A stretch of DNA of 64,000 nt. It comes from a virus. The stretch is taken from the IMG/VR virus record IMGVR_UViG_3300038722_000002, positions 1-64,000 of that record; one strand, written 5' to 3'. The notes under the pieces are model-generated. The model saw only the letters and a list, made by a program, of their open reading frames with translations. It was not told the DNA's origin and made no database searches. Positions 8,738 through 57,039 of the stretch are shown here, piece by piece (positions within the stretch are counted from its first letter, which is position 1; every line of letters begins with the position of its first letter). The translations under genes and the position numbers were made by a program.

Positions 8738-10189
8738 CTACACGTTTGTCTCTACTGTGGGGATACATGATTGTGATACTGCCGAGTCAGTAATGGTGAA
8801 GGCTGTTAATGCCTGCGTAACACCACCATCACCTTCACACAAGAACACGACATTCGTACTACCGTCAGTTGTGTAGTCGTGAGAGAATGAAACATAGGTG
8901 TTTGCACCAGAGATAAACGGTGAGGTATTATCTGCAACACCTTTAACCTCAGCACTATTTGCATCTTCATAAGTTGCTGCTGCTGCTGTATCGTAGTTGG
9001 CAGCTAAGAAGCAGTGGAACCAAGCCTCTGTATCAGCTATAGCGCCTGAACCAAGCTCTACTTGAACTGGAGTAAATACTGGATATACAGCAGTCAAACC
9101 ATTATCATCTAGGAACTCAACCTGAGTTAAGTCACTGACTGGCAAGTCTTCAATAAACACACCAAGACCATCGCCAGCACCAGTGATAGGACGAACCTTA
9201 CCTGATGGGGTATACGTATACCAAGTATCATAATCTTTACCGTTTAAAGACGCTGTACCATCTGTGACAATAGCATCAGCTTGTGCTATTGCATCTAGGT
9301 AAGCAACACATTGTGCTAAAGAGCCTCCACCTGTGTTATGTAGTATCCACGAGAAATCAGCATCAGGGCCAGCAAAACCTGTTTCGGTCTGTGGTGTAGC
9401 TAGTTTCTCTAAACTCATACCGTCCCAAGGTGATATTGGCGTAGTGTAAACATCTGCCAGATTATAGTCACCAGAGGTTAGGTGGTTGCTTTCGTTCAAA
9501 GCGGCACCAGTAGAGTACCCACCAAGCTCAGCAATACCTAGAGTTCCCGCAGTATCAATACGGTCATAGTTCTGACCATATGTACGAATACTCATGTACA
9601 TTGCTGCGGCAGTATTATCTAGTGTTGGTGTACCTGTAGCTGCATCATCTTGATATACAAGTACGGCTTCATCAATGTTACCACCCTTAGCGAAATCAAT
9701 AGAAGAAGCATATTGTGAAGGTTGCCAGTATGGTGTAGATGTTGGTAAGATTGCACCAAGACCTTTAGGGCCGAAATACTTACGTGTAATAACACCAGCA
9801 GCGTTAATCTCATCCCAACCAGAGCCTCGATGAAGCGCTCTTGTAGCATCATTAGCTGGCTTACGTCCATTAACAAATTTGTATGAACCACCGAACTTAA
9901 ACGTACCTTGTGTCCAGCGTTTATACTTACGAAGGTCTTCATCAACTTTACGCTCTTGGTTTTCAAAAGCATAAGTAGCTTCCATCTTAACACCATCAAG
10001 ACGGATAAGTGGGTTTGGGTCAGTGGCACCACCACCATGCGAGGTTAAATCTAAGGTTGGATAATCTGTAGCATCACCATACTCAAGTGTGCCTGCTGCC
10101 TTGTCAAAGAATACGTTACCATCTGTAAAGGAATTACTTGAGGCTTGAAACAAGCTTGTAGCGTAGTTGGATAGATCAATAGTAGCCAT
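8738..10189 (-). CDS. Putative virion structural protein
   Basis: 483-aa Gly/Thr/Asp-rich ORF with highly-expressed codon usage, in the late operon. Confidence 0.75.
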   Translation of the reverse strand: MATIDLSNYATSLFQASSNSFTDGNVFFDKAAGTLEYGDATDYPTLDLTSHGGGATDPNPLIRLDGVKMEATYAFENQERKVDEDLRKYKRWTQGTFKFGGSYKFVNGRKPANDATRALHRGSGWDEINAAGVITRKYFGPKGLGAILPTSTPYWQPSQYASSIDFAKGGNIDEAVLVYQDDAATGTPTLDNTAAAMYMSIRTYGQNYDRIDTAGTLGIAELGGYSTGAALNESNHLTSGDYNLADVYTTPISPWDGMSLEKLATPQTETGFAGPDADFSWILHNTGGGSLAQCVAYLDAIAQADAIVTDGTASLNGKDYDTWYTYTPSGKVRPITGAGDGLGVFIEDLPVSDLTQVEFLDDNGLTAVYPVFTPVQVELGSGAIADTEAWFHCFLAANYDTAAAATYEDANSAEVKGVADNTSPFISGANTYVSFSHDYTTDGSTNVVFLCEGDGGVTQALTAFTITDSAVSQSCIPTVETNV

Positions 10190-10203: not shown

Positions 10204-10554
10204 CTATTTTATAATTAATGTTGTTTCATTGGTGGTTGGAATATCAAACTTTAACCCTACTGGGCTGCAATTAGTCCATCTAAGATGACGACGTAAAAGC
10301 TCGCCCTCATCAGAGCGTCTAATGCTAATTTCAAATGCGTACAATGCTTGCGCAGTGACACCTCCTATATTAGATAAGGAGTTTTCGTGGGTTGAACTAA
10401 GCCCCTTGCGCGATAGGTCTAGTGTAGGATGCAGTTCTTTTGTACCTAGCTCGACAGTTTTATTTTCAGTGTTAAAGAATACATTACCATCCAAGAATTG
10501 ATCTGTTGAAGATAAGAACAGATTTTCCCTATAGTTATTAATATCAATAATCAT
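10204..10554 (-). CDS. Short paralog of the N-terminus of 8738-10189
   Basis: IDINNY..LF..S..F.DGNVFF...HPTLDL...GV...A.YAFE...R shared with the downstream gene. Confidence 0.7.
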   Translation of the reverse strand: MIIDINNYRENLFLSSTDQFLDGNVFFNTENKTVELGTKELHPTLDLSRKGLSSTHENSLSNIGGVTAQALYAFEISIRRSDEGELLRRHLRWTNCSPVGLKFDIPTTNETTLIIK

Positions 10555-10864: not shown

Positions 10865-12143
10865 TATTATCTACCTGTAGGTTTGGAATTACTGTTTGGT
10901 TTTCACTTCCTAGTATGATCGGCTGGGCCAATTCAACGTAGGTAGGGTGCATTATTTGTAAAGTAGTATTAGTGTCTGTAACGTATTCATAAGAGTATAT
11001 GTAGGTATCTGATACAGCATCCTCTATACCTGTTAGCTCAACACGAGAGGCTAATGGGTCTGGGTCTGTGACATACAACCTAAGCTCTGCCCCTATTGGG
11101 ACGTTTACGATAGTCAGTGTGGACTGTTGTGTTACTGTCTCAACAGTACCAGCACTAGCAAACGAACTTGTACTATTATAATTATTCCATCTAGTTTGAA
11201 TAACATCTACAGGAGTAAGTACTGGAGTATTTCTTGTGAAACGTAGGCTACTTATTGAACAGTTTGTGTTGGGGTACTGTACAGGCTTTGCGGGAGTATC
11301 TGCACCAGACAACCACTTCAATCGCTCTATGTCTGAAGAAAAAGCTCCGCTACTATGCAATACACCATCTAGGTAATAGTACACCGTACCGCTTTCCCTA
11401 TAGAAAGCAACATGGTGCCAAATACTCCAATCCAGCCACTGAGCGCCACCAATACTGGTGTCTCGTAAAACAAGAGCACCATAGTTGATACCTATGCCAA
11501 CAGAACCTACCCCAGAGAAGTAGTCCACTGGCGAGAAGACATTCTGAGTACCTGCGGTTGGTGCTGTCCCGTTGAAATTAACAAGAAACTCAAAATAGAA
11601 GTCACCAGATATATTCATCTCTTCTTCTAAGATTGCGTAGTTGTCTTGAAGTATGTTCCAAGCCTTCTGCCCAGCCACCTTACCATTGACATGTACTGGC
11701 GTACCTTTCTCTGATAGGGCGTTGTATGTTCCAGCTGAGTCTTTTGCAGTCTTAAAACCATCACCTACTGTAGCTTCTTGGAAGTGTATAGCTGCGTAAT
11801 ACTCAGACCAAACTGTACTTAACGGAAGCTGTGCCGAAGGATTGCCCCAGAACAAATAGACTATAGTATCAACAGACCCAGACAATGCTGTCTTTACATG
11901 CACTACGATCTCATCAGCCGATTTATCAATCATTTGAATATCAAAATCCAAAAGATTATTGCCGTTGACATCTGTAGCGAATCTAATGTCAGAACCATCT
12001 AAATTACAACCACCTACGTCAGCTAAAAGTTCTGCTGGGACATTAGAGGCGTTCAGCAATACTTGTGCAGCGGCTATATCGCCTGTTACTAGAGAATTAG
12101 TAATAGTAATAGGGCACTTCTTTGACCATCCATTAAGTGCCAT
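10857..12143 (-). CDS. DUF2341 plus LamG/ConA-like domain structural protein
   Basis: DGSDIRFATD and VYLFWGNP (DUF2341); WHHVAFYRESGTVYYYLDG (LamG). Confidence 0.75.
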   Translation of the reverse strand: MALNGWSKKCPITITNSLVTGDIAAAQVLLNASNVPAELLADVGGCNLDGSDIRFATDVNGNNLLDFDIQMIDKSADEIVVHVKTALSGSVDTIVYLFWGNPSAQLPLSTVWSEYYAAIHFQEATVGDGFKTAKDSAGTYNALSEKGTPVHVNGKVAGQKAWNILQDNYAILEEEMNISGDFYFEFLVNFNGTAPTAGTQNVFSPVDYFSGVGSVGIGINYGALVLRDTSIGGAQWLDWSIWHHVAFYRESGTVYYYLDGVLHSSGAFSSDIERLKWLSGADTPAKPVQYPNTNCSISSLRFTRNTPVLTPVDVIQTRWNNYNSTSSFASAGTVETVTQQSTLTIVNVPIGAELRLYVTDPDPLASRVELTGIEDAVSDTYIYSYEYVTDTNTTLQIMHPTYVELAQPIILGSENQTVIPNLQVDNND

Positions 12144-37339: not shown

Positions 37340-38962
37340 TTAGGACTCCTTGTATTTAGGTGTTTCTTGTAAGGTGGCTGTGTAACTGTCTATGACGTTA
37401 GCCGCTCTTGATTCGTTTTGTTGTTGATTTCTTGTTACTATGTTTACTGTCCTACCTGAACACGCTGCGGCAAACGCCATACTCATAGCATCCACCCAAT
37501 CATCTTTACGTGCGCTATTACTTTTCTTTTCAGGGTCAAAGGCTTCAAGTTCAGAATACAGGGCGTTCAGGGTAGGTTTATCAAACGTACTTTCAACTAT
37601 GTGTACTAAACCTAATGAACACGCCTGACAGAAGGGTTGGAATGCAACCAACTTCTTATTAGGTGTATTATGTGCAGACTTATCTTCCTTAACCTTCAGT
37701 CCTTCCTCTTGGAAACGACCTAACGTATAGTAATGATCTGTCGCAGCACCACCTGTATCTTTTGTAAATACCCAAGTGGTGTCGTCGCCGTCATGGTGGG
37801 CTTGTCGGATAAGCATGGAGTCTCTAGCCCCTGCTAATTTCCGCATCCTCCCATGAACCCTTTCCTTAGCATCTAATTTAAGCTGCTGAACGTCTGTATA
37901 GTCGTCTAGGTAGTCACCTATTAACCAATACTCTCCATTCCTATCCTTAGCTATCTTAGGGGATGTGGCTGTGAAGTCTGGTTGGGCGTAAACCTCACTA
38001 GGTTCACTATACCCCTTATCCGTTCCTCTGTACCACTTGAGATCAGGAGGTATATCTGCCAAGGAGCTAACCTTCTCTCCTGCTTCTCCTCTTAACCAAT
38101 GTCGTTGCCATAACGACTGACTACGTGGACGAGAGTACCAGTTACCCCACAATTGAGTATCACGTTCATGGTCTGGTAGGTTATTCAACTCCGATAGGTA
38201 CACAGGGTTCGCTTTCAAACCTAATGGGTTATCGAATATATTAAAGAAGAAGTATGTGAACTTCTTCGGACGTATGTAAATCGTTTCATCCGAGTTAGGT
38301 ATATCAACCCACAAACACTCAGGGTAGTTCTCTTGAAACCACTCTTCCGATGGGCCGAAGATGAACTCACCTTCTTTTACTATGAACCACCTAATGTCCC
38401 CTCGTTTGTCGGGGTCTGGTGAACCATCCTCTTTCAAGTAGTATTCTACTAGAGGTAGGCACCAGCTATCAGGGTTAGGGTTGAGTGTCCCGACACAAAA
38501 GGAGTTCATATCTGCCTCTGAACGCAGACATGTCATCAAGAAGGTTACTTGGCTCTTAGAGAACTGATCGATTTCATCGAATCCTATAAGTGAGTAGCCT
38601 TTACCTCGGTGTGAACTCTTGTCGTCCTCGTAGAACATGTGACGATAGAATTGCTTTGCTCCCGAAGGCCACACCCAAGCCTTATCTGAAATCTTAGGTT
38701 GTGCGCCGAAGAGGGGATATTGGTTTTCACCTTTCTCCCACAGGCCGTTAGCACCCATAATTTCATCGTATTGTCTTCGGAAGAATATCCCCCTGAAACT
38801 CTTATCCTCTGCAAAGCAGCAGGGGATCATACTAAGTATTTCTGACTTGCCACCGAATCGTGCGCCACCCCATAACATGAAGTCCACATCACCGATCATA
38901 CTGAAAGCTAACTCTTGATTACCTTCTTGGGGGCGTACATCTTGCCACGTCTCATATCCCAT
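37340..38962 (-). CDS. terL: Terminase large subunit
   Basis: Walker A GGARFGGKS, Walker B LIGFDEIDQ, TLNP coupling motif, KDDWVDA nuclease motif. Confidence 0.92.
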   Translation of the reverse strand: MGYETWQDVRPQEGNQELAFSMIGDVDFMLWGGARFGGKSEILSMIPCCFAEDKSFRGIFFRRQYDEIMGANGLWEKGENQYPLFGAQPKISDKAWVWPSGAKQFYRHMFYEDDKSSHRGKGYSLIGFDEIDQFSKSQVTFLMTCLRSEADMNSFCVGTLNPNPDSWCLPLVEYYLKEDGSPDPDKRGDIRWFIVKEGEFIFGPSEEWFQENYPECLWVDIPNSDETIYIRPKKFTYFFFNIFDNPLGLKANPVYLSELNNLPDHERDTQLWGNWYSRPRSQSLWQRHWLRGEAGEKVSSLADIPPDLKWYRGTDKGYSEPSEVYAQPDFTATSPKIAKDRNGEYWLIGDYLDDYTDVQQLKLDAKERVHGRMRKLAGARDSMLIRQAHHDGDDTTWVFTKDTGGAATDHYYTLGRFQEEGLKVKEDKSAHNTPNKKLVAFQPFCQACSLGLVHIVESTFDKPTLNALYSELEAFDPEKKSNSARKDDWVDAMSMAFAAACSGRTVNIVTRNQQQNESRAANVIDSYTATLQETPKYKES

Positions 38963-40163: not shown

Positions 40164-40203
40164 TCTGTTTACTGGGGAGTTTATTTCCTCCCTCTATAAT
40201 ATG

Positions 40204-40235
40204 TATTCTGCTACTAACTTTTGCCATTTGTCAAG
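40204..40235 (-). promoter_or_regulatory. Promoter facing the late operon (twin of 40572-40603)
   Basis: CTTGACAAAT-N8-TTAGTAGCAGAATA on the - strand. Confidence 0.65.
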
Positions 40236-40271
40236 TAATTTTTAACATTTTTTACAAAAAAAGGGAAATTA

Positions 40272-40583
40272 ATGAAAAATATGAAGAATTTACCTCCTAT
40301 TCCACATGAATCTGAGGTCAAACAGGCGTTTTATGGACACATCCAAGAGACTCTATCCAGTGGGTCGTTGAATATTCCTGATGTTGGACTGCAAGAAATC
40401 ACATCATTTAGCGGAGGACACATCGGTTATAACAGCCCTATTAGCATCCTAAAGAGTGAAAATACAGACCTTCTCCTCTATTCTGTCGGGGGTATCGGCA
40501 CACTAGATGTCTATAATAACTACTCTGAAAGGCAAGAAATGAATGTATTTGTCCGTAAAGCTAAGAAAGTGCTTGACAAATAG
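40272..40583 (+). CDS. Hypothetical protein
   Basis: 103-aa ORF between the twin promoters. Confidence 0.6.
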   Translation: MKNMKNLPPIPHESEVKQAFYGHIQETLSSGSLNIPDVGLQEITSFSGGHIGYNSPISILKSENTDLLLYSVGGIGTLDVYNNYSERQEMNVFVRKAKKVLDK

Positions 40584-40603
40584 ATTAAATTAGTAGCAGA
40601 ATA
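40572..40603 (+). promoter_or_regulatory. Promoter upstream of the structured RNA / HNH locus (twin of 40204-40235)
   Basis: CTTGACAAAT-N8-TTAGTAGCAGAATA. Confidence 0.65.
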
Positions 40604-40609
40604 GGAATT

Positions 40610-41160
40610 AGAGTAATACAGAAGGTGTGGTTGTAAGACTACACCTGTACAAAATACATCACAATATACATTCCACCTGAGTGTGTATTCTAATGTATTT
40701 ATACATAGAGGCGTTTCGGCAAGGTTTCCCTCGCGTGGTAGCAAAAGCAAAACCCGACATATTGGTATATATGGAGCTGTAATGGATGACAGCGTTGAAG
40801 TGTAGTATCAAGAGTATACAATAACAAATCCTAGCTCTGACGTCCTCTGTCAACTGGGTAGGTGGAAATGGAACAAGGCCCGATCACTAAACATACCGAA
40901 TACCCTAAGATAGTCGTAGGTATGTTTACTCACTAGGGTTAAGTAGTGGGAGAATGCGTGTACCAAGGGGCAGGTCACGATAACGCAGAACCGATGACGT
41001 TATAGAGTAAACTCTTTATTTGGAATAAGTAATAATGAAAGTGACCAGTTAGGTCATATTACTTATATTGTACTTTACTAGGTACAATGGTTATATCTTT
41101 CAAGCAGTTATATATTATTAGAATATAATTGTTAGGATAGACCACCGAATAGAGAGGGCC
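40610..41160 (+). ncRNA. Candidate large structured ncRNA (~550 nt) upstream of an HNH gene
   Basis: About ten consecutive hairpins whose non-WC pairs are G-U on the + strand; no credible ORF; promoter directly upstream. Confidence 0.6.
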
Positions 41161-41193
41161 TAGTTGCATCTGAAACTTGAGAATGGAGAGAAT

Positions 41194-41997
41194 ATGGGTG
41201 ATTTACTACTGAAATTTAATGTACTAAAAGAGATAGAAGGGAGTGATGAAAACTCCTTCCAGCAGTTCGCTAATGATATGGCTTTGAAATACGGTATATT
41301 AGGAACTACTAATACAGTGATAGATTCGCTGTGGACTAAGAAGCGGCTGAACGTGAAAGACTACTTGCCTCCTAAGAAGAAGAAACGTAAGAAGCAGGAG
41401 AGACGTGGCTACCACTACAGTCCTAACGCAGACCTAGAGTGGTTATCCTTGAGACGTGATGTGATTAAGGTATTAGGAACTCGGTGTCTTTGCTGTAGAA
41501 AGAAACCAAAGAAGACTAAAGACCTACACGTTGACCACGTTCTACCAAGGAGTAGACATCCACACCTAACGTATGACATAATGAACCTTCAAGTGTTGTG
41601 TAAGACGTGTAACTACGATAAGTCAGATATACACGCAACGGATTACAGGACAGACGAACAACGAGAGAGGTTATTGATTATGAAGGGTGTTAGAGGTAAT
41701 TGTGTTGTGAGTGAGGATATGGTAGATGATGTGTATGATGTACTAGGGGATATCCCCACTGAATACCTACAGGAGCTACACAGCTTACTTGAGAAGACGA
41801 AGAACAGTAAAGTAATGCTAGAGGTAGAGAATGATAAACTATGCTCTGTAGTGTACCTGATAAGCTCTAAGGGCAGACATGTCGCCCACTGTAGTAAGAA
41901 TAAGATAGTTGTCCGTGAGTATCGCAACTGGAGCAACGACAACCGAGAGTTTAAGAATATAACCAAGGAGTTGTTGATTAAATGCAGGAAAGATTAG
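41194..41997 (+). CDS. HNH endonuclease (McrA/HNH_5-like) with Lys-rich N-terminal segment and C-terminal extension
   Basis: W..LR..V...CLCC...LHVDHVLPRS...NLQVLCKTCN..KS; likely ATG at 41194 after GGAG (ORF track start 41164). Confidence 0.85.
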   Translation: MGDLLLKFNVLKEIEGSDENSFQQFANDMALKYGILGTTNTVIDSLWTKKRLNVKDYLPPKKKKRKKQERRGYHYSPNADLEWLSLRRDVIKVLGTRCLCCRKKPKKTKDLHVDHVLPRSRHPHLTYDIMNLQVLCKTCNYDKSDIHATDYRTDEQRERLLIMKGVRGNCVVSEDMVDDVYDVLGDIPTEYLQELHSLLEKTKNSKVMLEVENDKLCSVVYLISSKGRHVAHCSKNKIVVREYRNWSNDNREFKNITKELLIKCRKD

Positions 41998-42200
41998 AAG
42001 AGTTTATAAATAAGTTAAAAGAAAGGTTGACGGCAGAATGGGGAGACACTATAATCGTCACCAAGATACAGGCAAGAGGATATGGCCCTACAATGAATGT
42101 GATACAAATTAAGAATAAAGGACTTGCAGAAACATACGGAGTGTGGGAGACTAGAACAACTGGAGGGGGTAGCTTAGTGCAGTGGTGCTACTTCACATAA
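41982..42200 (+). CDS. Hypothetical protein
   Basis: 72-aa ORF with AAGGAG RBS. Confidence 0.65.
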   Translation: MQERLEEFINKLKERLTAEWGDTIIVTKIQARGYGPTMNVIQIKNKGLAETYGVWETRTTGGGSLVQWCYFT

Positions 42201-42207
42201 GATTAAC

Positions 42208-42246
42208 GGGTAGCTAGGAATTTGGAGGTTAAAATCCTCCCTGCCC
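42208..42246 (+). ncRNA. tRNA remnant or minihelix (acceptor stem plus T arm only)
   Basis: GGGTAG...CTGCCC stem enclosing GGAGG-TTAAAAT-CCTCC. Confidence 0.4.
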
Positions 42247-42450
42247 TAACCTACGAGCTGTGTGACTACAGCTAGTACAGCCCTGTACGATGAGAAGTAA
42301 GTTGTGGTGACTTGCATGGGAGGCCGCGTAAGGTGGGCTGAAAACACCTCAGTCTTGTACAATGACTTAAAACTTAGGGGTGGAGCTTCGGTGTAGAAAT
42401 CTTTGAGAGGTGTATCCAGTTGCTAGTCTGGTTAAAATTAGCACGAATTA

Positions 42451-42571
42451 CGGGGTGTAGCTTAAAAGGTAGAGCAGTTGGGCCAGCCGCCGCTAACTAG
42501 TATCGCGCAAAGGCGTTGACTAGTATCGGAAAGGGCGCTAATCAGTACGGTCTCGATAACCGTCACCCCGT
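42451..42571 (+). ncRNA. tRNA-like RNA with a long hairpin replacing the anticodon loop
   Basis: Acceptor CGGGGTG/CACCCCG, U8A9, D arm GCTT-AAAAGGTA-GAGC, anticodon stem GTTGG/CTAAT, T arm ACGGT-CTCGATA-ACCGT. Confidence 0.65.
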
Positions 42572-42590
42572 CTTAGTTAAGGAGAGATGT

Positions 42591-42866
42591 GTGTATTTTA
42601 AAAAGAAACCAGACAGGCGTGTAGGGGATCTGTATTGGGAACAGTTATCTATGTGGGATAGATCACCTACTGATGCAGTTGACATGTACAGCGAAGATGG
42701 GTTTCACTTCGAGCTTAGGTTAATTACAGAGGTGAGGAGTGCTACGGGTTGGAGTAATAGGTTTGTGATGTGGGATGAGTTAACATCTGAGCAGATAGAG
42801 GGGCTTGTACCTCAAGAAGGACACAACTGGTCACGGATAATGGGGAACGTAGAGGACTTTAGTTAA
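42591..42866 (+). CDS. Hypothetical protein
   Basis: GTG start after AAGGAG; the longer track ORF (42516) overlaps the tRNA-like element. Confidence 0.65.
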   Translation: MYFKKKPDRRVGDLYWEQLSMWDRSPTDAVDMYSEDGFHFELRLITEVRSATGWSNRFVMWDELTSEQIEGLVPQEGHNWSRIMGNVEDFS

Positions 42867-54757: not shown

Positions 54758-54762
54758 CTTAG

Positions 54763-54870
54763 CAGCCCCTACAAGCCGTTTTAAGGCACATTTCACACCA
54801 CCCTATACAATCACACTAGCAAACCCCTAAACGCTCCCTATGGACGTTCTAGGGCTGCTGTGAGGCATCC
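54763..54870 (-). repeat. Periodic element (strong-gyrase-site-like), inverted relative to 60345-60450
   Basis: Reverse complement contains CCTTAAAACGGCTTGTAGGGG and GGGAGCGTTTAGGGG. Confidence 0.55.
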
Positions 54871-55113
54871 TAATATACTCTACTCTCATATATAGTACAG
54901 GAACACCTCCTCCACCTAAAGGGATAACCCCCTTATTCCCTCCCAAATATCCTCACACACAACCTCTTCCCCAATAATAGCAACACATTCCCTGTAAGGA
55001 CACGCCGACACAAACCCCCTCAATATACCCCAAATATCCACATATCTACCACTAAATTATATGTAGCACATTAATTCCCCACCAAAAATCTAATATTCCC
55101 TCCTAAAATATCC

Positions 55114-55194
55114 TTGACACCTACCATCACATATATGAAAATATCAAATAGCTGAGAGTAGTCTCAGGAGACAACCACACCCCCTGCCTCAAAT
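55114..55194 (+). promoter_or_regulatory. Promoter plus 48-nt unit, copy A
   Basis: TTGACA-17-GAAAAT-N4-AATAGCTGAGAGTAGTCTCAGGAGACAACCACACCCCCTGCCTCAAAT. Confidence 0.55.
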
Positions 55195-56124
55195 AAAAAT
55201 ATCAACAACAACACAATGAGGGCATCCTCCGTTCGCCCGTTCAGGAATATCATGTTATCAATGATAGAGATAATAAGGACATGTCAGCGGCTAACCTCCC
55301 CAACATACTCCCCCAACTACCTCCTCCCCGCATATATGTGATTGTAAGATGGTAGGAGAATGGCGAAGCATTCTCATAGGTGGGACACAGGGGTAGGGTT
55401 GTACCCCTGTATACAGTATAAGGAGATAATACTCTAGGGGAGCGTATAGGCAGGCAGAATGCGGTGTGTAGACGTGTTGTGTGGTGATATTCCTAGTGCT
55501 CATTTCTAATAATAGATTCAATATTTAGCTGTTTAACACCCTACCACACCTCCTATAGAAAGTCATTATAATTCTAAAATATCCTTAGAACCATTAGCTA
55601 TATCCCCCGACAATATTCCCCCATATACCTTATATACCCCTTTTATGTTCCCCCTTATAACCTTTTGTTATACAGTTCGCATAACATAGATTATGTTAAA
55701 TAGCCTATAACGATATTATTTGATGAACCATATGTTGGTACATATAAACCATAATATGGTACATAGATATAACTAATAGTTATAACAACTTCAAGGCGCT
55801 ACTACCATTGTATCATAAGAGGATATTTGAGGTAAAGTGGAGTTTTATACCTATTTGTTATATAAAATGAGGTGTTAAGTGGGAAATGGTATAAGAAAAA
55901 GGGCGATTATTGTTGACTTTGTGGGGTTTGTGGTGTTAAACATATAGGGGGATATAATATTGTTAGGATATTATCAACATATTGGGTATAATATTATCAA
56001 CATATAGTGTACATATTGGATAGAATATATATACATATCACATAGAATATTGATAACATATACGCACTAGAATATATACCCCCAGCATATGCACCCCTGT
56101 ATATTATCCCCATTACTATTATAT

Positions 56125-56253
56125 GCGTCTATATAGACGCCTACCCTCTATACACCTTTTAAGGTGTAACACAACTCACACCCCAGCACTCGCTCCCCCT
56201 AACATTGCTCCCCCTATATGGCAATACCACTATATAAGCGTCTATATAGACGC
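56125..56253. repeat. Two copies of a perfect 16-bp palindrome GCGTCTATATAGACGC
   Basis: At 56125-56140 and 56238-56253. Confidence 0.9.
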
Positions 56254-56485
56254 ATAGTAGGGCAGGCGGCAAGGTTAGCCGCTATCATACCTCTAAACGC
56301 CTATATCTACCTATCATACCTCTCTCACTAACACAACGCCCCTAGAACGTCCTCTATTGCGTTCTAAGGGCGTTGTAAGGTTGGGCTTTACGTTAGTATT
56401 AGATTGTCCCTAAACGCTCTGAATAGCTATAGGTTATAAGCGTGAGGGTTGTTAGAACTAAATGTTATATTAAATTGTAGGTGTT

Positions 56486-56508
56486 AAAAAGCCGCTTAAT
56501 AGCGGCTT
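56486..56508 (-). terminator. Terminator at the end of the early gene block
   Basis: AAGCCGC-TTAATA-GCGGCTT preceded by AAAA (U-tract on -). Confidence 0.75.
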
Positions 56509-56522
56509 GTGTGTGGGGGGTG

Positions 56523-56756
56523 TCATTTTGTTTTCTTGGCTTCTCTATAGTCTTCTCGCATGTCTTTAATAGTGTGTCCGATAGGGGCGATCATTGTAGC
56601 AGTGTAATAATCATAATTATCCTCTATACAAATCATGTAATACCCCCAGTCATAAAGTGATGCTAGCACGTTGTTTACTGCCGCATTTTCCGACTGCTTA
56701 AAATCTAAGTAGAAGCAACCGCTTGAGTCCAGTGTACTGCTATATCTTGCTTTCAT
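56523..56756 (-). CDS. Early hypothetical protein
   Basis: 77-aa ORF with own promoter at 56796-56823 (TTGTGT-16-TACAAT). Confidence 0.7.
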   Translation of the reverse strand: MKARYSSTLDSSGCFYLDFKQSENAAVNNVLASLYDWGYYMICIEDNYDYYTATMIAPIGHTIKDMREDYREAKKTK

Positions 56757-56880
56757 AATCTTTAGTCCGTTTGGTTTGTTGCTTAACTGGTACCCATTGT
56801 ACAGGAACCAACTAAGGACACAACACCTCTCTTAGAATAAAAAGGAATAGTAACCCTCTCGTTTATAACAAGAGGGTATA

Positions 56881-56960
56881 TAGAGCGTTTAGCCTTAAAG
56901 TAATACCATCGTAAGGGGTAGCTCTAAACTCGCTTAAAACGGCTTACAGGGCGTTCTAAG
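56881..56960 (+). repeat. Periodic element (strong-gyrase-site-like)
   Basis: 56921-56951 matches 60418-60448 at 30/31 nt. Confidence 0.6.
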
Positions 56961-57039
56961 ACTATTGGACGCATAGGTTTATAACAGCCCCTAACAATAT
57001 TAACGGTACAATGTAGTTGATCATAAAAACACCCCCTCT

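What the first reader, a model, noticed from the sequence alone, without database searches (positions are those of the whole stretch)
40572..41997. Promoter, ~550-nt structured RNA and HNH nuclease: candidate RNA-associated nuclease (HEARO/OMEGA-like logic) or RNA-primed origin module
Seen: a dedicated promoter (40572-40603) is followed by ~560 ORF-free nt made of back-to-back hairpins (40623-40646, 40776-40793, 40888-40928, 40929-40950, 40980-41003, 41025-41066, 41067-41088, 41104-41134). Their non-WC pairs are consistently G-U on the + strand, which points to a + strand RNA. The next gene is an HNH protein with a PPKKKKRKKQERR basic segment before the HNH core and ~110 extra C-terminal residues, unlike the three homing-type nucleases elsewhere in the window. 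Established: HEARO/omegaRNA RNAs sit beside HNH-containing IscB, and ColE1 RNA II is a ~555-nt structured replication primer. Inference: the RNA is either a partner or guide scaffold of this RuvC-less HNH protein, or a transcription-primed origin.
Basis: partly seen in the sequence, partly recalled or inferred. Interest (0 to 1): 0.85.

Follow-up and report, generated by a model that had tools for sequence, protein, structure and literature searches.

The report
Structured phage leader RNA before HNH gene
A marine phage makes, from a promoter type of its own, a non-coding RNA stretch with two very stable folded modules in front of an ordinary HNH nuclease gene, and nothing ties the RNA to the nuclease as a guide.

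Summary
A sigma-70-like promoter (40573-40602) is followed by 580-610 ORF-free bases and an HNH gene (41194-41997). The + strand folds far better than shuffles (z -5.1; coding background never below -2.8). The excess sits in two modules: a 5' two-hairpin module (40604-40705, z -4.1) and a 145-nt four-way junction (41012-41156, z -6.7 on +, -2.5 on -). The ~300 nt between them fold like shuffles. Wobble pairs favour the + strand.

No Rfam family matches (HEARO, group I intron, tRNA, GOLLD, ROOL). The protein has no RuvC domain, and its basic segment is shared by its HNH relatives. In 6 of 6 homologous HNH loci the 160 nt before the gene are not structured. The same promoter recurs at 71142 before a second, unrelated 630-nt structured ORF-free stretch with no HNH, and a relative phage has a third such unit.

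Best reading (0.45): a structured non-coding leader of the rightward operon, from a promoter class private to this phage. Rival (0.25): a stand-alone stable RNA, as in phage ICP1. No homologues exist, so covariation was untestable. Another first-stage note covers this same stretch, read from another window of this genome.

The parts
40573..40602 (+). Promoter-like site TTGACA-18-CAGAAT. It is one of three near-identical copies in the 83.5-kb record.
   Evidence: The copies lie at 40573 (+), 40234 (-) and 71142 (+, outside the window). That it is functional, and a start near 40610, are inferred.
40205..40234 (-). Inverted copy of the same promoter. It faces the 53-aa gene, the terS-like gene and the terminase operon.
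   Evidence: One search gives an exact pattern match. One search shows a 57-nt inverted repeat, 74% complementary, at 40194-40250 and 40557-40613, flanking the 103-aa ORF at 40272-40583.
40604..40705 (+). 5' module. It has a 10-bp hairpin with a GUAA loop (40623-40646) and an extended hairpin (40647-40704).
   Evidence: -31.4 kcal/mol, z -4.11 with 200 shuffles, none as good; the - strand gives z -2.01; 32 pairs, 4 of them G-U.
40706..41004 (+). ORF-free middle stretch with no folding excess.
   Evidence: 40700-40860 gives z -0.74 and 40860-41010 gives z -0.65. Searches show no plausible ORF and no PHROG match.
41012..41156 (+). Four-way junction. The closing stem is 41012-41023 with 41145-41156. 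The three hairpins are 41025-41066, 41067-41088 and 41089-41143, with 0-1 unpaired bases at the junction.
   Evidence: MFE equals centroid, -51.3 kcal/mol, z -6.70 with 200 shuffles, none as good; the - strand gives -30.5 kcal/mol and z -2.46; 57 pairs, 8 of them G-U; 106 background 160-nt window-strands have minimum z -3.59.
41089..41129 (+). DNA-level motifs inside hairpin 3: GGTTATAT at 41089 and a perfect TATAAT at 41124-41129. They may form an operator and second promoter for the HNH gene.
   Evidence: GGTTATAT is shared by all three units about 450-490 nt from their promoters. It occurs 6 + 6 times in the genome against 2.2 expected per strand. TATAAT was read. The function is inferred.
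41185..41997 (+). GGAGAG ribosome-binding site (41185-41190) and the HNH endonuclease gene (ATG 41194, stop 41997).
   Evidence: One search gives the sequence. PF01844 at 5.6e-09 and PF14279 at 1.6e-07, residues 98-144; 24 PHROG families match, 21 annotated as HNH, endonuclease VII or junction nucleases, covering residues 57-160.

Best explanation
The stretch 40603-41193 is a non-coding, + strand transcribed leader at the head of the rightward (early, nucleotide-metabolism) gene block of an orphan marine phage. It is made from a promoter class private to this phage.

The leader carries two RNA-level modules. A two-hairpin module lies about 14 nt after the inferred start. A tight 145-nt four-way junction ends 28 nt before the ribosome-binding site of the first gene. 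I take these to act in cis on the fate of the transcript, by protecting the 5' end, blocking or directing processing, or possibly making the polymerase resistant to termination. With no convincing terminator, transcription would run on into the HNH gene.

The HNH protein is an ordinary phage HNH endonuclease that happens to be the first gene. It is not an RNA-guided enzyme.

Shown: the promoter match, the lack of ORFs, the strand-specific excess structure, the recurrence of the architecture and the lack of any link to HNH relatives. Inferred: that the promoter fires, where the RNA starts and ends, and what the modules do.
For: (1) Structure beyond chance and specific to the + strand. The whole stretch gives z -5.11 against -3.48. 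The junction gives -6.70 against -2.46. The backgrounds never come near: 24 window-strands of 560 nt reach at most -2.76, and 106 window-strands of 160 nt reach at most -3.59.

(2) Wobble bias. Internal G.T against A.C mismatches are 6:0 here and 4:1 in the second unit. That is 10 of 11 against an expected share of 0.55, P = 0.014. Gene blocks give 87:89 and 28:31.

(3) Recurrence. The promoter occurs 3 times in 83.5 kb. Both + strand copies are followed by the two most structured of the 20 ORF-free gaps scored on both strands, at -4.96 and -5.60. The next best is -3.86.

(4) A relative phage (TerL 63% identical) has a TTGACA-16-TAGAAT promoter at a divergent junction. A 615-nt ORF-free stretch follows with z -4.67, or -6.09 against -2.61 for a 600-nt window. 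A neighbouring ORF-poor stretch scores +0.30.

(5) All three units sit at the start of a gene block at a divergent junction.

(6) No convincing terminator lies between the RNA and the next gene. The scan finds one weak hairpin at 41041-41057 here and none in the other two units.
Against: - No homologue of the stretch exists in 50,697 phage records, in five relatives' whole records or in 91 fetched loci. Covariation could therefore not be tested, and the structure rests on thermodynamics and wobble bias in one sequence.
- The wobble counts are small.
- The three units share no sequence beyond the promoter and a short DNA motif, so they may not have one function.
- In the second unit and in the relative, a strong sigma-70-like promoter lies between the structured stretch and the next gene. 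A perfect TATAAT lies inside hairpin 3 here. The downstream genes may therefore not need this transcript, which favours a stand-alone RNA.
- The 3' module is AT-rich and built of near-perfect palindromes that also carry a DNA motif. Part of the signal may be at DNA level.
- G.T pairs would also stabilise single-stranded DNA.
- In the fold of 40604-41230 the ribosome-binding site is only weakly paired, so no simple translational switch is visible.
Confidence: 0.45

Rival explanations
1. Stand-alone stable non-coding RNA. The promoter's main product is the RNA itself or pieces processed from it, for example the 145-nt four-way junction. It acts in trans. It would be of the same kind as the abundant ~800-nt ORF-less transcript of vibriophage ICP1 or the large phage RNAs GOLLD and ROOL.
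For: - In 2 of 3 units a strong sigma-70-like promoter separates the structured stretch from the next gene. Here a perfect TATAAT lies inside hairpin 3.
- The two units are the most structured non-coding stretches of the genome.
- Weak tRNA-like elements lie 1 kb downstream, at 42176-42248 with 22.2 bits. Relatives carry tRNA genes in comparable promoter-led ORF-free units.
- Precedent: ICP1's most abundant transcript is a ~800-nt RNA in a ~1-kb ORF-less space (PMC7567579, passages read). GOLLD and ROOL are phage-borne and often lie near tRNA islands (10.1101/2024.12.08.627333, passages read).
Against: - No terminator is predicted after any of the three units.
- There is no match to GOLLD, ROOL or any other Rfam family.
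- The middle 300 nt show no excess structure, unlike ornate RNAs.
- There are no homologues and no covariation.
Confidence: 0.25
2. Mainly a DNA-level element of the divergent control region. It could be operators and a second promoter for the rightward genes, a replication origin primed by the transcript (T4 or ColE1 logic), or a packaging site next to the terminase genes and the HNH gene.
For: - The 3' part is 31% G+C and is made of three adjacent near-perfect palindromes.
- It carries GGTTATAT, a motif found mostly in non-coding zones and shared by all three units at a similar distance from their promoters.
- It lies 0.7 kb from the terS-like gene and 1.6 kb from TerL.
- HNH genes next to packaging genes are reported for cos phages (PMC12967558 and PMC5052747, seen as search listing and abstract start only; Kala et al. 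2014 recalled, not seen).
- Cumulative GC skew turns at about 40.1 kb.
Against: - The strand asymmetry of 21 kcal/mol in the junction and its 8 G-U pairs are not expected of protein-binding palindromes in duplex DNA.
- The second unit at 71.2 kb has the same features but is far from the terminase.
- There are no iterons here and no antisense promoter. Tandem repeats suited to an origin lie at 55.7-56.1 kb instead.
- The skew turn coincides with the switch of gene orientation.
Confidence: 0.15
3. The RNA is a partner, scaffold or guide of the HNH protein, on OMEGA/IscB-like logic.
For: - The two are adjacent and in the same orientation.
- A basic segment precedes the HNH core, and the N- and C-terminal parts have no informative relatives.
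- Three of the 7 homologous HNH loci examined have an ORF-poor stretch of 450 nt or more upstream.
Against: - There is no RuvC domain and no HEARO match at E up to 10.
- The basic segment is shared with relatives.
- Four of 7 homologous loci have no upstream gap.
- In 6 of 6 loci tested, the 160 nt before the HNH start give z between -1.38 and +0.73.
- The junction model finds nothing in those loci.
- Two of 3 structured units have no HNH gene.
- The strains laid show no listed differences in the stretch, so no variable guide-like end is seen.
Confidence: 0.04
4. A known mobile or stable RNA in disguise: a group I intron carrying the HNH gene, a decayed tRNA array, or a decayed protein gene.
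For: - Relatives carry group I introns (L085:10335-10624 and 10883-11208, 93 and 69 bits).
- Relatives carry tRNA arrays near the terminase, with 18 tRNAs in L003.
- HNH genes often ride in such places.
Against: - The same Rfam library that finds those introns and tRNAs finds none here at E up to 10.
- ARAGORN finds no tRNA in the window.
- The flanking 103-aa and 72-aa ORFs match no family, so no split host gene is visible.
- Eight ORF fragments from the stretch match no PHROG.
Confidence: 0.03

Closest known systems
ICP1 ~800-nt non-coding transcript between gp139 and gp140 (PMC7567579, passages read)
   Same: It is a lytic phage of a marine gammaproteobacterium. The RNA lies in an ORF-less space of 0.6-1 kb, has no family assignment and has no known function.
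   Different: ICP1's RNA is shown by RNA-seq to be the most abundant transcript, whereas expression here is only inferred. There is no sequence similarity (one search found no phage record matching 40272-42300). ICP1's RNA lies beside the lysis cluster, not at a divergent junction.
GOLLD (RF01998) and ROOL (RF03087) large phage RNAs. The accession numbers are recalled.
   Same: They are several-hundred-nt structured RNAs carried by phages, often near tRNA genes, with unknown function (10.1101/2024.12.08.627333, passages read). Here weak tRNA-like elements lie 1 kb downstream.
   Different: No Rfam family, these two included, is matched. Only about 250 of about 590 nt show excess structure. No covariation data exist.
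Structured early-operon leaders of lytic phages, for example the T7 early leader with its RNase III site before gene 0.3, and the HK022 put RNAs just downstream of early promoters (both recalled, not checked here)
   Same: A strong promoter is followed by several hundred untranslated nucleotides with stable hairpins before the first gene. A two-hairpin element lies directly after the promoter.
   Different: No sequence or model comparison was possible. A tight four-way junction is not a feature I know of in those leaders.
IscB with its omega (HEARO) RNA, the OMEGA systems (PMC13565253 and others, search listing only)
   Same: A structured RNA lies next to a protein with an HNH domain.
   Different: There is no RuvC domain and no HEARO match. 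The HNH is of the PF01844/PF14279 type. The RNA does not follow the nuclease clade.
Phage HNH endonucleases of the McrA / HK97 gp74 / endonuclease VII kind
   Same: The protein shares the CxxC...HVDH...N...CxxCN core, preceded by W..LR and a basic stretch. Of 24 PHROG matches, 21 are annotated as HNH, endonuclease VII or junction nucleases. It aligns with 10 relatives with 22 invariant columns. It lies within 2.3 kb of the terminase genes.
   Different: It has a unique ~100-residue C-terminal part with no informative relatives. It is transcribed away from the terminase genes rather than towards them.

Membership tests
IscB / OMEGA (HEARO omega RNA plus nuclease) | RuvC domain split by the HNH insertion | tested here: not met
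   Pfam finds only PF01844 and PF14279 at residues 98-144. All 24 PHROG matches lie within residues 57-160.
IscB / OMEGA (HEARO omega RNA plus nuclease) | Adjacent RNA matches the HEARO family | tested here: not met
   There is no match at gathering score in the window and none at E up to 10 in 40300-42600.
IscB / OMEGA (HEARO omega RNA plus nuclease) | The RNA co-occurs with the nuclease clade | tested here: not met
   In 6 of 6 homologous loci the 160 nt upstream give z -1.38 to +0.73. The junction model hits only itself. Two of 3 structured units lack an HNH gene.
IscB / OMEGA (HEARO omega RNA plus nuclease) | Variable guide segment at one end of the RNA | tested here: inconclusive
   The strains laid are about 99% identical and show no listed difference within 40584-41163. 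No diverged homologues are available.
ColE1-type RNA II primer origin | Antisense regulator promoter (RNA I) within the first ~110 nt, on the opposite strand | tested here: not met
   The scan finds no - strand promoter-like site within 40604-41163. No RNA I-type family is matched. The feature itself is recalled.
ColE1-type RNA II primer origin | Replication starts at the 3' end of the processed transcript | not testable with these tools
   This needs replication-coverage or end-mapping data.
Group I intron carrying a homing endonuclease gene | Catalytic core matching RF00028 and a host gene split by it | tested here: not met
   There is no match at E up to 10, while the same model scores 93.2 and 69.3 bits in relative L085. 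The flanking ORFs match no family.
GOLLD / ROOL large phage RNAs | Match to the family covariance model | tested here: not met
   No Rfam family is matched at gathering score in the window. In L001 only one chance-level match (L10_leader, 26.9 bits against a gathering score of 44) appears at E up to 1. None of these families appears at E up to 10 in 40300-42600.
tRNA or tRNA array | Cloverleaf recognised by ARAGORN or RF00005 | tested here: not met
   ARAGORN finds 0 genes in the window. RF00005 matches only 42176-42248, at 22.2 bits and below the gathering score of 29, outside the stretch.
Phage HNH endonuclease (PF01844 / PF14279) | HNH core with its metal-binding Cys pairs and catalytic His | tested here: met
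   PF01844 scores 36.5 bits against a cut-off of 21.4, and PF14279 scores 31.6 against 27.5. Invariant columns C98, C101, H112, D114, H115, N131, C136, C139 and N140 are seen in the alignment with 10 relatives.
Packaging-associated HNH (HK97 gp74 kind) | Gene adjacent to the terminase genes across a cos site, in a phage with cohesive ends | tested here: inconclusive
   The gene lies 1.3 kb from the terS-like gene and 2.2 kb from TerL, but is transcribed divergently. The genome ends could not be determined. The family's definition is recalled.

The most novel reading that the evidence does not exclude
This phage lineage expresses, from a private promoter class, a set of unrelated but equally compact structured RNAs at the heads of its rightward gene blocks. 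There are two in this phage and one in a 63%-TerL relative. They are stand-alone stable RNAs acting in trans. The 145-nt four-way junction would be a new phage RNA fold whose target is a host or phage factor. That factor could even be the neighbouring HNH protein.
Probability: 0.2. Interest if true: 0.65.

Novelty: new member of a known kind. Interest (0 to 1): 0.38.

Why it matters
If the RNA is real and stable, it adds a marine example to the small set of large ORF-less phage transcripts whose function is unknown (ICP1's RNA, GOLLD, ROOL). It also offers a compact, very stable four-way junction that can be tested directly by probing, deletion or pull-down.

The finding also corrects an attractive but unsupported reading. 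A structured RNA next to an HNH gene is not in itself evidence of an RNA-guided nuclease. Here the RNA follows a promoter class, not the nuclease.

Tried and rejected
- **Rfam.** The whole window at gathering score, 40300-42600 at E up to 10 and L001 at E up to 1 gave only chance-level rows.
- **Sequence homologues of the stretch.** I found none in the phage records by blastn, in five relatives' whole records or in 91 fetched loci (the best rows were in coding DNA).
- **Relatives by HNH protein.** The viral contigs scan gave none.
- **Relatives by TerL.** The single protein gave two loci at 37%. The scans in viral contigs gave five contigs at 57-63%.
- **CsrA-sponge idea.** GGA motifs occur 9 times against 10.3 expected. 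Rejected.
- **Homology between the two units.** Only the promoter aligns.
- **Pseudogene idea.** No PHROG matches.
- **C-terminal part of the HNH protein.** The Atlas gave no match by features, and structure matches were all below TM 0.5. The full-library phmmer search gave, apart from the protein itself, only a 40-residue helical repeat in a 1991-aa protein and a weak hit in an amidase. These are not informative.
- **Sequencing runs.** Six DNA holders from 3 studies, all marine or seawater metagenomes. No RNA holder is listed.
- **Laying contigs of X3-X6.** No listed differences within 40584-41163 or within the HNH ORF, so no covariation data.
  - The contigs of X3 and X4 both stop at 40820/40810 and resume at 40903/40917 without loose ends. 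The tool states that a hole proves nothing. I keep it only as a lead for a read-start analysis of genome ends and do not use it as evidence.
- **Supplements.** I did not ask for supplementary files of papers. The ICP1 paper's figures and supplements may hold coordinates of its RNA that I did not see.
Full report
**Setting**

The window is the first 64 kb of an 83,539-bp virus record. CheckV rates the record 54% complete.
- TerL (37340-38962, - strand) is at most 51% identical to any isolated phage. The best is Pseudoalteromonas phage H101.
- TerL is 57-68% identical to proteins of uncultured marine contigs.
- The DNA occurs in marine and seawater metagenomes of three studies.
- Genes run leftwards from about 40.1 kb (53-aa gene, terS-like gene, TerL, virion genes). 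They run rightwards from 40272 (103-aa ORF, the stretch in question, HNH, thioredoxin, ribonucleotide reductase).
- The finding therefore lies at a divergent junction.

**What is there**

A promoter-like site TTGACA-18-CAGAAT lies at 40573-40602. From the stop of the 103-aa ORF (40583) to the ATG of the HNH gene (41194) there is no credible ORF on either strand. Eight ORF fragments taken from the stretch match no PHROG.

The 560-nt + strand folds to -167.2 kcal/mol against -133.2 +/- 6.7 for shuffles, z -5.11. The - strand gives z -3.48.

Controls from the same genome:
- Twenty-four window-strands of 560 nt range from +1.03 to -2.76.
- Among 20 ORF-free gaps scored on both strands, this stretch (-4.96) and a second one at 71172-71800 (-5.60) are the two lowest, both on the + strand. 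The next best is -3.86.
- A cruder regression of 300-nt window energies on composition did not single the region out, giving -1.2 to -2.0. This is because the signal is local.

**Where the signal sits**

The excess structure lies in two modules.
- 40604-40705 holds a 10-bp hairpin with a GUAA loop and an extended hairpin. It gives z -4.11.
- 41005-41163 folds into a four-way junction.
  - It has a 12-bp closing stem and three hairpins, with 0-1 unpaired bases at the junction.
  - MFE equals centroid at -51.3 kcal/mol, z -6.70, and none of 200 shuffles is as good.
  - The complement reaches only -30.5 kcal/mol, z -2.46.
  - Of its 57 pairs, 8 are G-U.
- One hundred and six background 160-nt window-strands have mean z -0.27, sd 1.04 and minimum -3.59.
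- The 300 nt between the modules fold like shuffles, at -0.74 and -0.65.

**Strand**

I ran a hairpin scan that treats G.T and A.C mismatches alike.
- This stretch gives 6 G.T and 0 A.C on the + strand.
- The second unit gives 4:1, and the unit of a relative gives 6:3.
- Gene blocks give 87:89 and 28:31, and the whole genome 219:212.
- For the two units of this genome, 10 of 11 against a composition-expected share of 0.55 gives P = 0.014.

The counts are small, but they agree with the energy asymmetry. Single-stranded DNA would show the same bias.

**The promoter class and the second unit**

I confirmed three copies of TTGAC(A/T)-18-CAGAAT in the record, at 40573 (+), 40234 (-) and 71142 (+).
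- The first two are part of a 57-nt imperfect inverted repeat around the 103-aa ORF.
- The third copy also sits at a divergent junction.
  - It is followed by 630 ORF-free nt, with z -4.43 on + and -1.98 on -.
  - A TTGACA-17-TATAGT promoter comes next, then a 232-aa protein of PHROG 6452 and a PIF1-like helicase. There is no HNH gene.
- The two stretches share nothing but the promoter.

**A relative**

The contig behind L085 (TerL 63% identical) shows the same arrangement.
- It has divergent promoters at 777 (-) and 831 (+, TTGACA-16-TAGAAT).
- The + promoter is followed by 615 ORF-free nt with z -4.67. A 600-nt window gives -6.09 against -2.61.
- A second copy of the promoter and a 64-aa gene follow.
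- That promoter motif occurs only at these two places in the 70-kb record.
- An ORF-poor neighbour, L085:1960-2760, scores +0.30.
- There is again no HNH gene.
- In another relative (L103) the comparable promoter-led ORF-free unit holds tRNA genes and a long terminator hairpin.

The three units share one 8-mer, GGTTATAT, about 450-490 nt from their promoters. The motif occurs 6 + 6 times in the genome against 2.2 expected per strand, mostly in non-coding zones. I read it as a DNA-level operator. Together with a perfect TATAAT at 41124-41129, it suggests a second promoter inside hairpin 3.

**The HNH protein**

- Pfam finds HNH and HNH_5 at residues 98-144 and nothing else.
- Twenty-four PHROG families match residues 57-160, and 21 of them are annotated as HNH, endonuclease VII or junction nucleases.
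- Among 5.8 billion proteins, only the core has relatives, covering 27-46% of the query.
- In an alignment with 10 relatives, a basic stretch precedes the W..LR motif in most of them. The 'basic arm' is therefore shared with relatives.
- The C-terminal ~100 residues have no informative relatives.

**Does the RNA follow the nuclease?**

I examined 7 of the 16 phage records that hold a relative of the HNH core.
- Three have an ORF-poor stretch of 450 nt or more before the gene.
  - Pantoea phage LIET2 has 591 nt, which includes three annotated tiny ORFs.
  - Vibrio phage 1.178.O has 459 nt.
  - Sulfitobacter phage phiGT1 has 641 nt.
  - Their whole-stretch z values are -4.07, -3.25 and -3.04.
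- Four have none.
- The 160 nt directly before the HNH start are unremarkable in 6 of 6 loci tested, at z -1.38 to +0.73.
- The one strongly structured window (L180:2304-2463, -4.75) lies 240-400 nt upstream of the HNH start, where a long hairpin followed by a U-run reads as the terminator of the preceding operon.
- Vibrio phage 1.161.O was left out of this test because its HNH ORF is not annotated.
- A covariance model of the junction scores 190 bits on itself and at most 13.6 bits (E 0.35) in 393 kb that include these loci and the relatives.
- Rfam finds no HEARO, group I intron, tRNA, GOLLD or ROOL here. The same library finds group I introns and tRNAs in the relatives.

**Reading**

The structured RNA is tied to a promoter class and to the heads of rightward gene blocks, not to the HNH gene. 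I therefore read it as a structured non-coding leader (0.45). The main rival is a stand-alone stable RNA (0.25). That rival is favoured by the second promoters and by the precedent of ICP1's abundant ORF-less transcript (PMC7567579, passages read).
- A DNA-level role for the AT-rich 3' part remains possible (0.15).
- The RNA-guided or RNA-partnered nuclease reading is left at about 0.04.
- What the modules do is inferred, not shown.

**Limits**

- There are no diverged homologues, so no covariation test could be run.
- No RNA data were available.
- Two tools that would have helped were closed: contig look-up for the closest TerL relatives, and structure prediction.
- The wobble statistics rest on 11-20 mismatches.

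Noticed in passing
L001:7142-7800 (genome 71142-71800, outside the window): This is a second promoter-led, ORF-free, + strand structured stretch of 630 nt. It gives z -4.43 to -5.60 on + and about -1.9 to -2.0 on -. It lies at the other divergent junction, before a PHROG 6452 protein and a PIF1-like helicase. An RlaP-family gene lies upstream on the - strand.
   Followed up: yes
window 40194-40250 and 40557-40613: A 57-nt imperfect inverted repeat (74% complementary) carries the two promoter copies. It brackets the 103-aa ORF at 40272-40583, which matches no family. It is unclear which promoter serves that ORF.
   Followed up: partly
window 42176-42450: A weak tRNA-like match lies at 42176-42248 (22.2 bits, below the gathering score). 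Strains in runs X3 and X4 carry many substitutions from 42167 to 42402, and their contigs run on into unlike sequence after 42449. This is a variable spot just downstream of the HNH gene and the 72-aa ORF.
   Followed up: partly
window 54758-57016: This is a 2.2-kb ORF-poor zone at a convergent junction. It has 21-22-nt tandem repeats at 55726-55765 and 56002-56078, and TATAAC-N5-GTTATA dyads at 55656 and 55768. Hairpin mismatches lean to A.C on the + strand (4 G.T against 13 A.C), which hints at - strand RNAs. It is a better origin candidate than the finding.
   Followed up: partly
   Followed up: partly
L085:10335-10624 and 10883-11208: Two group I introns (93.2 and 69.3 bits) lie just downstream of TerL in the closest IMG/VR relative. 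The ORF that begins at 9586 ends at 10347, where the first intron starts, so that gene is probably split.
   Followed up: no
L003:2195-4898: Eighteen tRNA genes lie in a row 2-6 kb upstream of TerL in a 95-kb relative (TerL 37% identical). This 83.5-kb record has none recognisable.
   Followed up: no
window 41187: The only listed strain difference near the stretch is A>G at 41187 in run X3. It lies inside the GGAGAG ribosome-binding site of the HNH gene.
   Followed up: no
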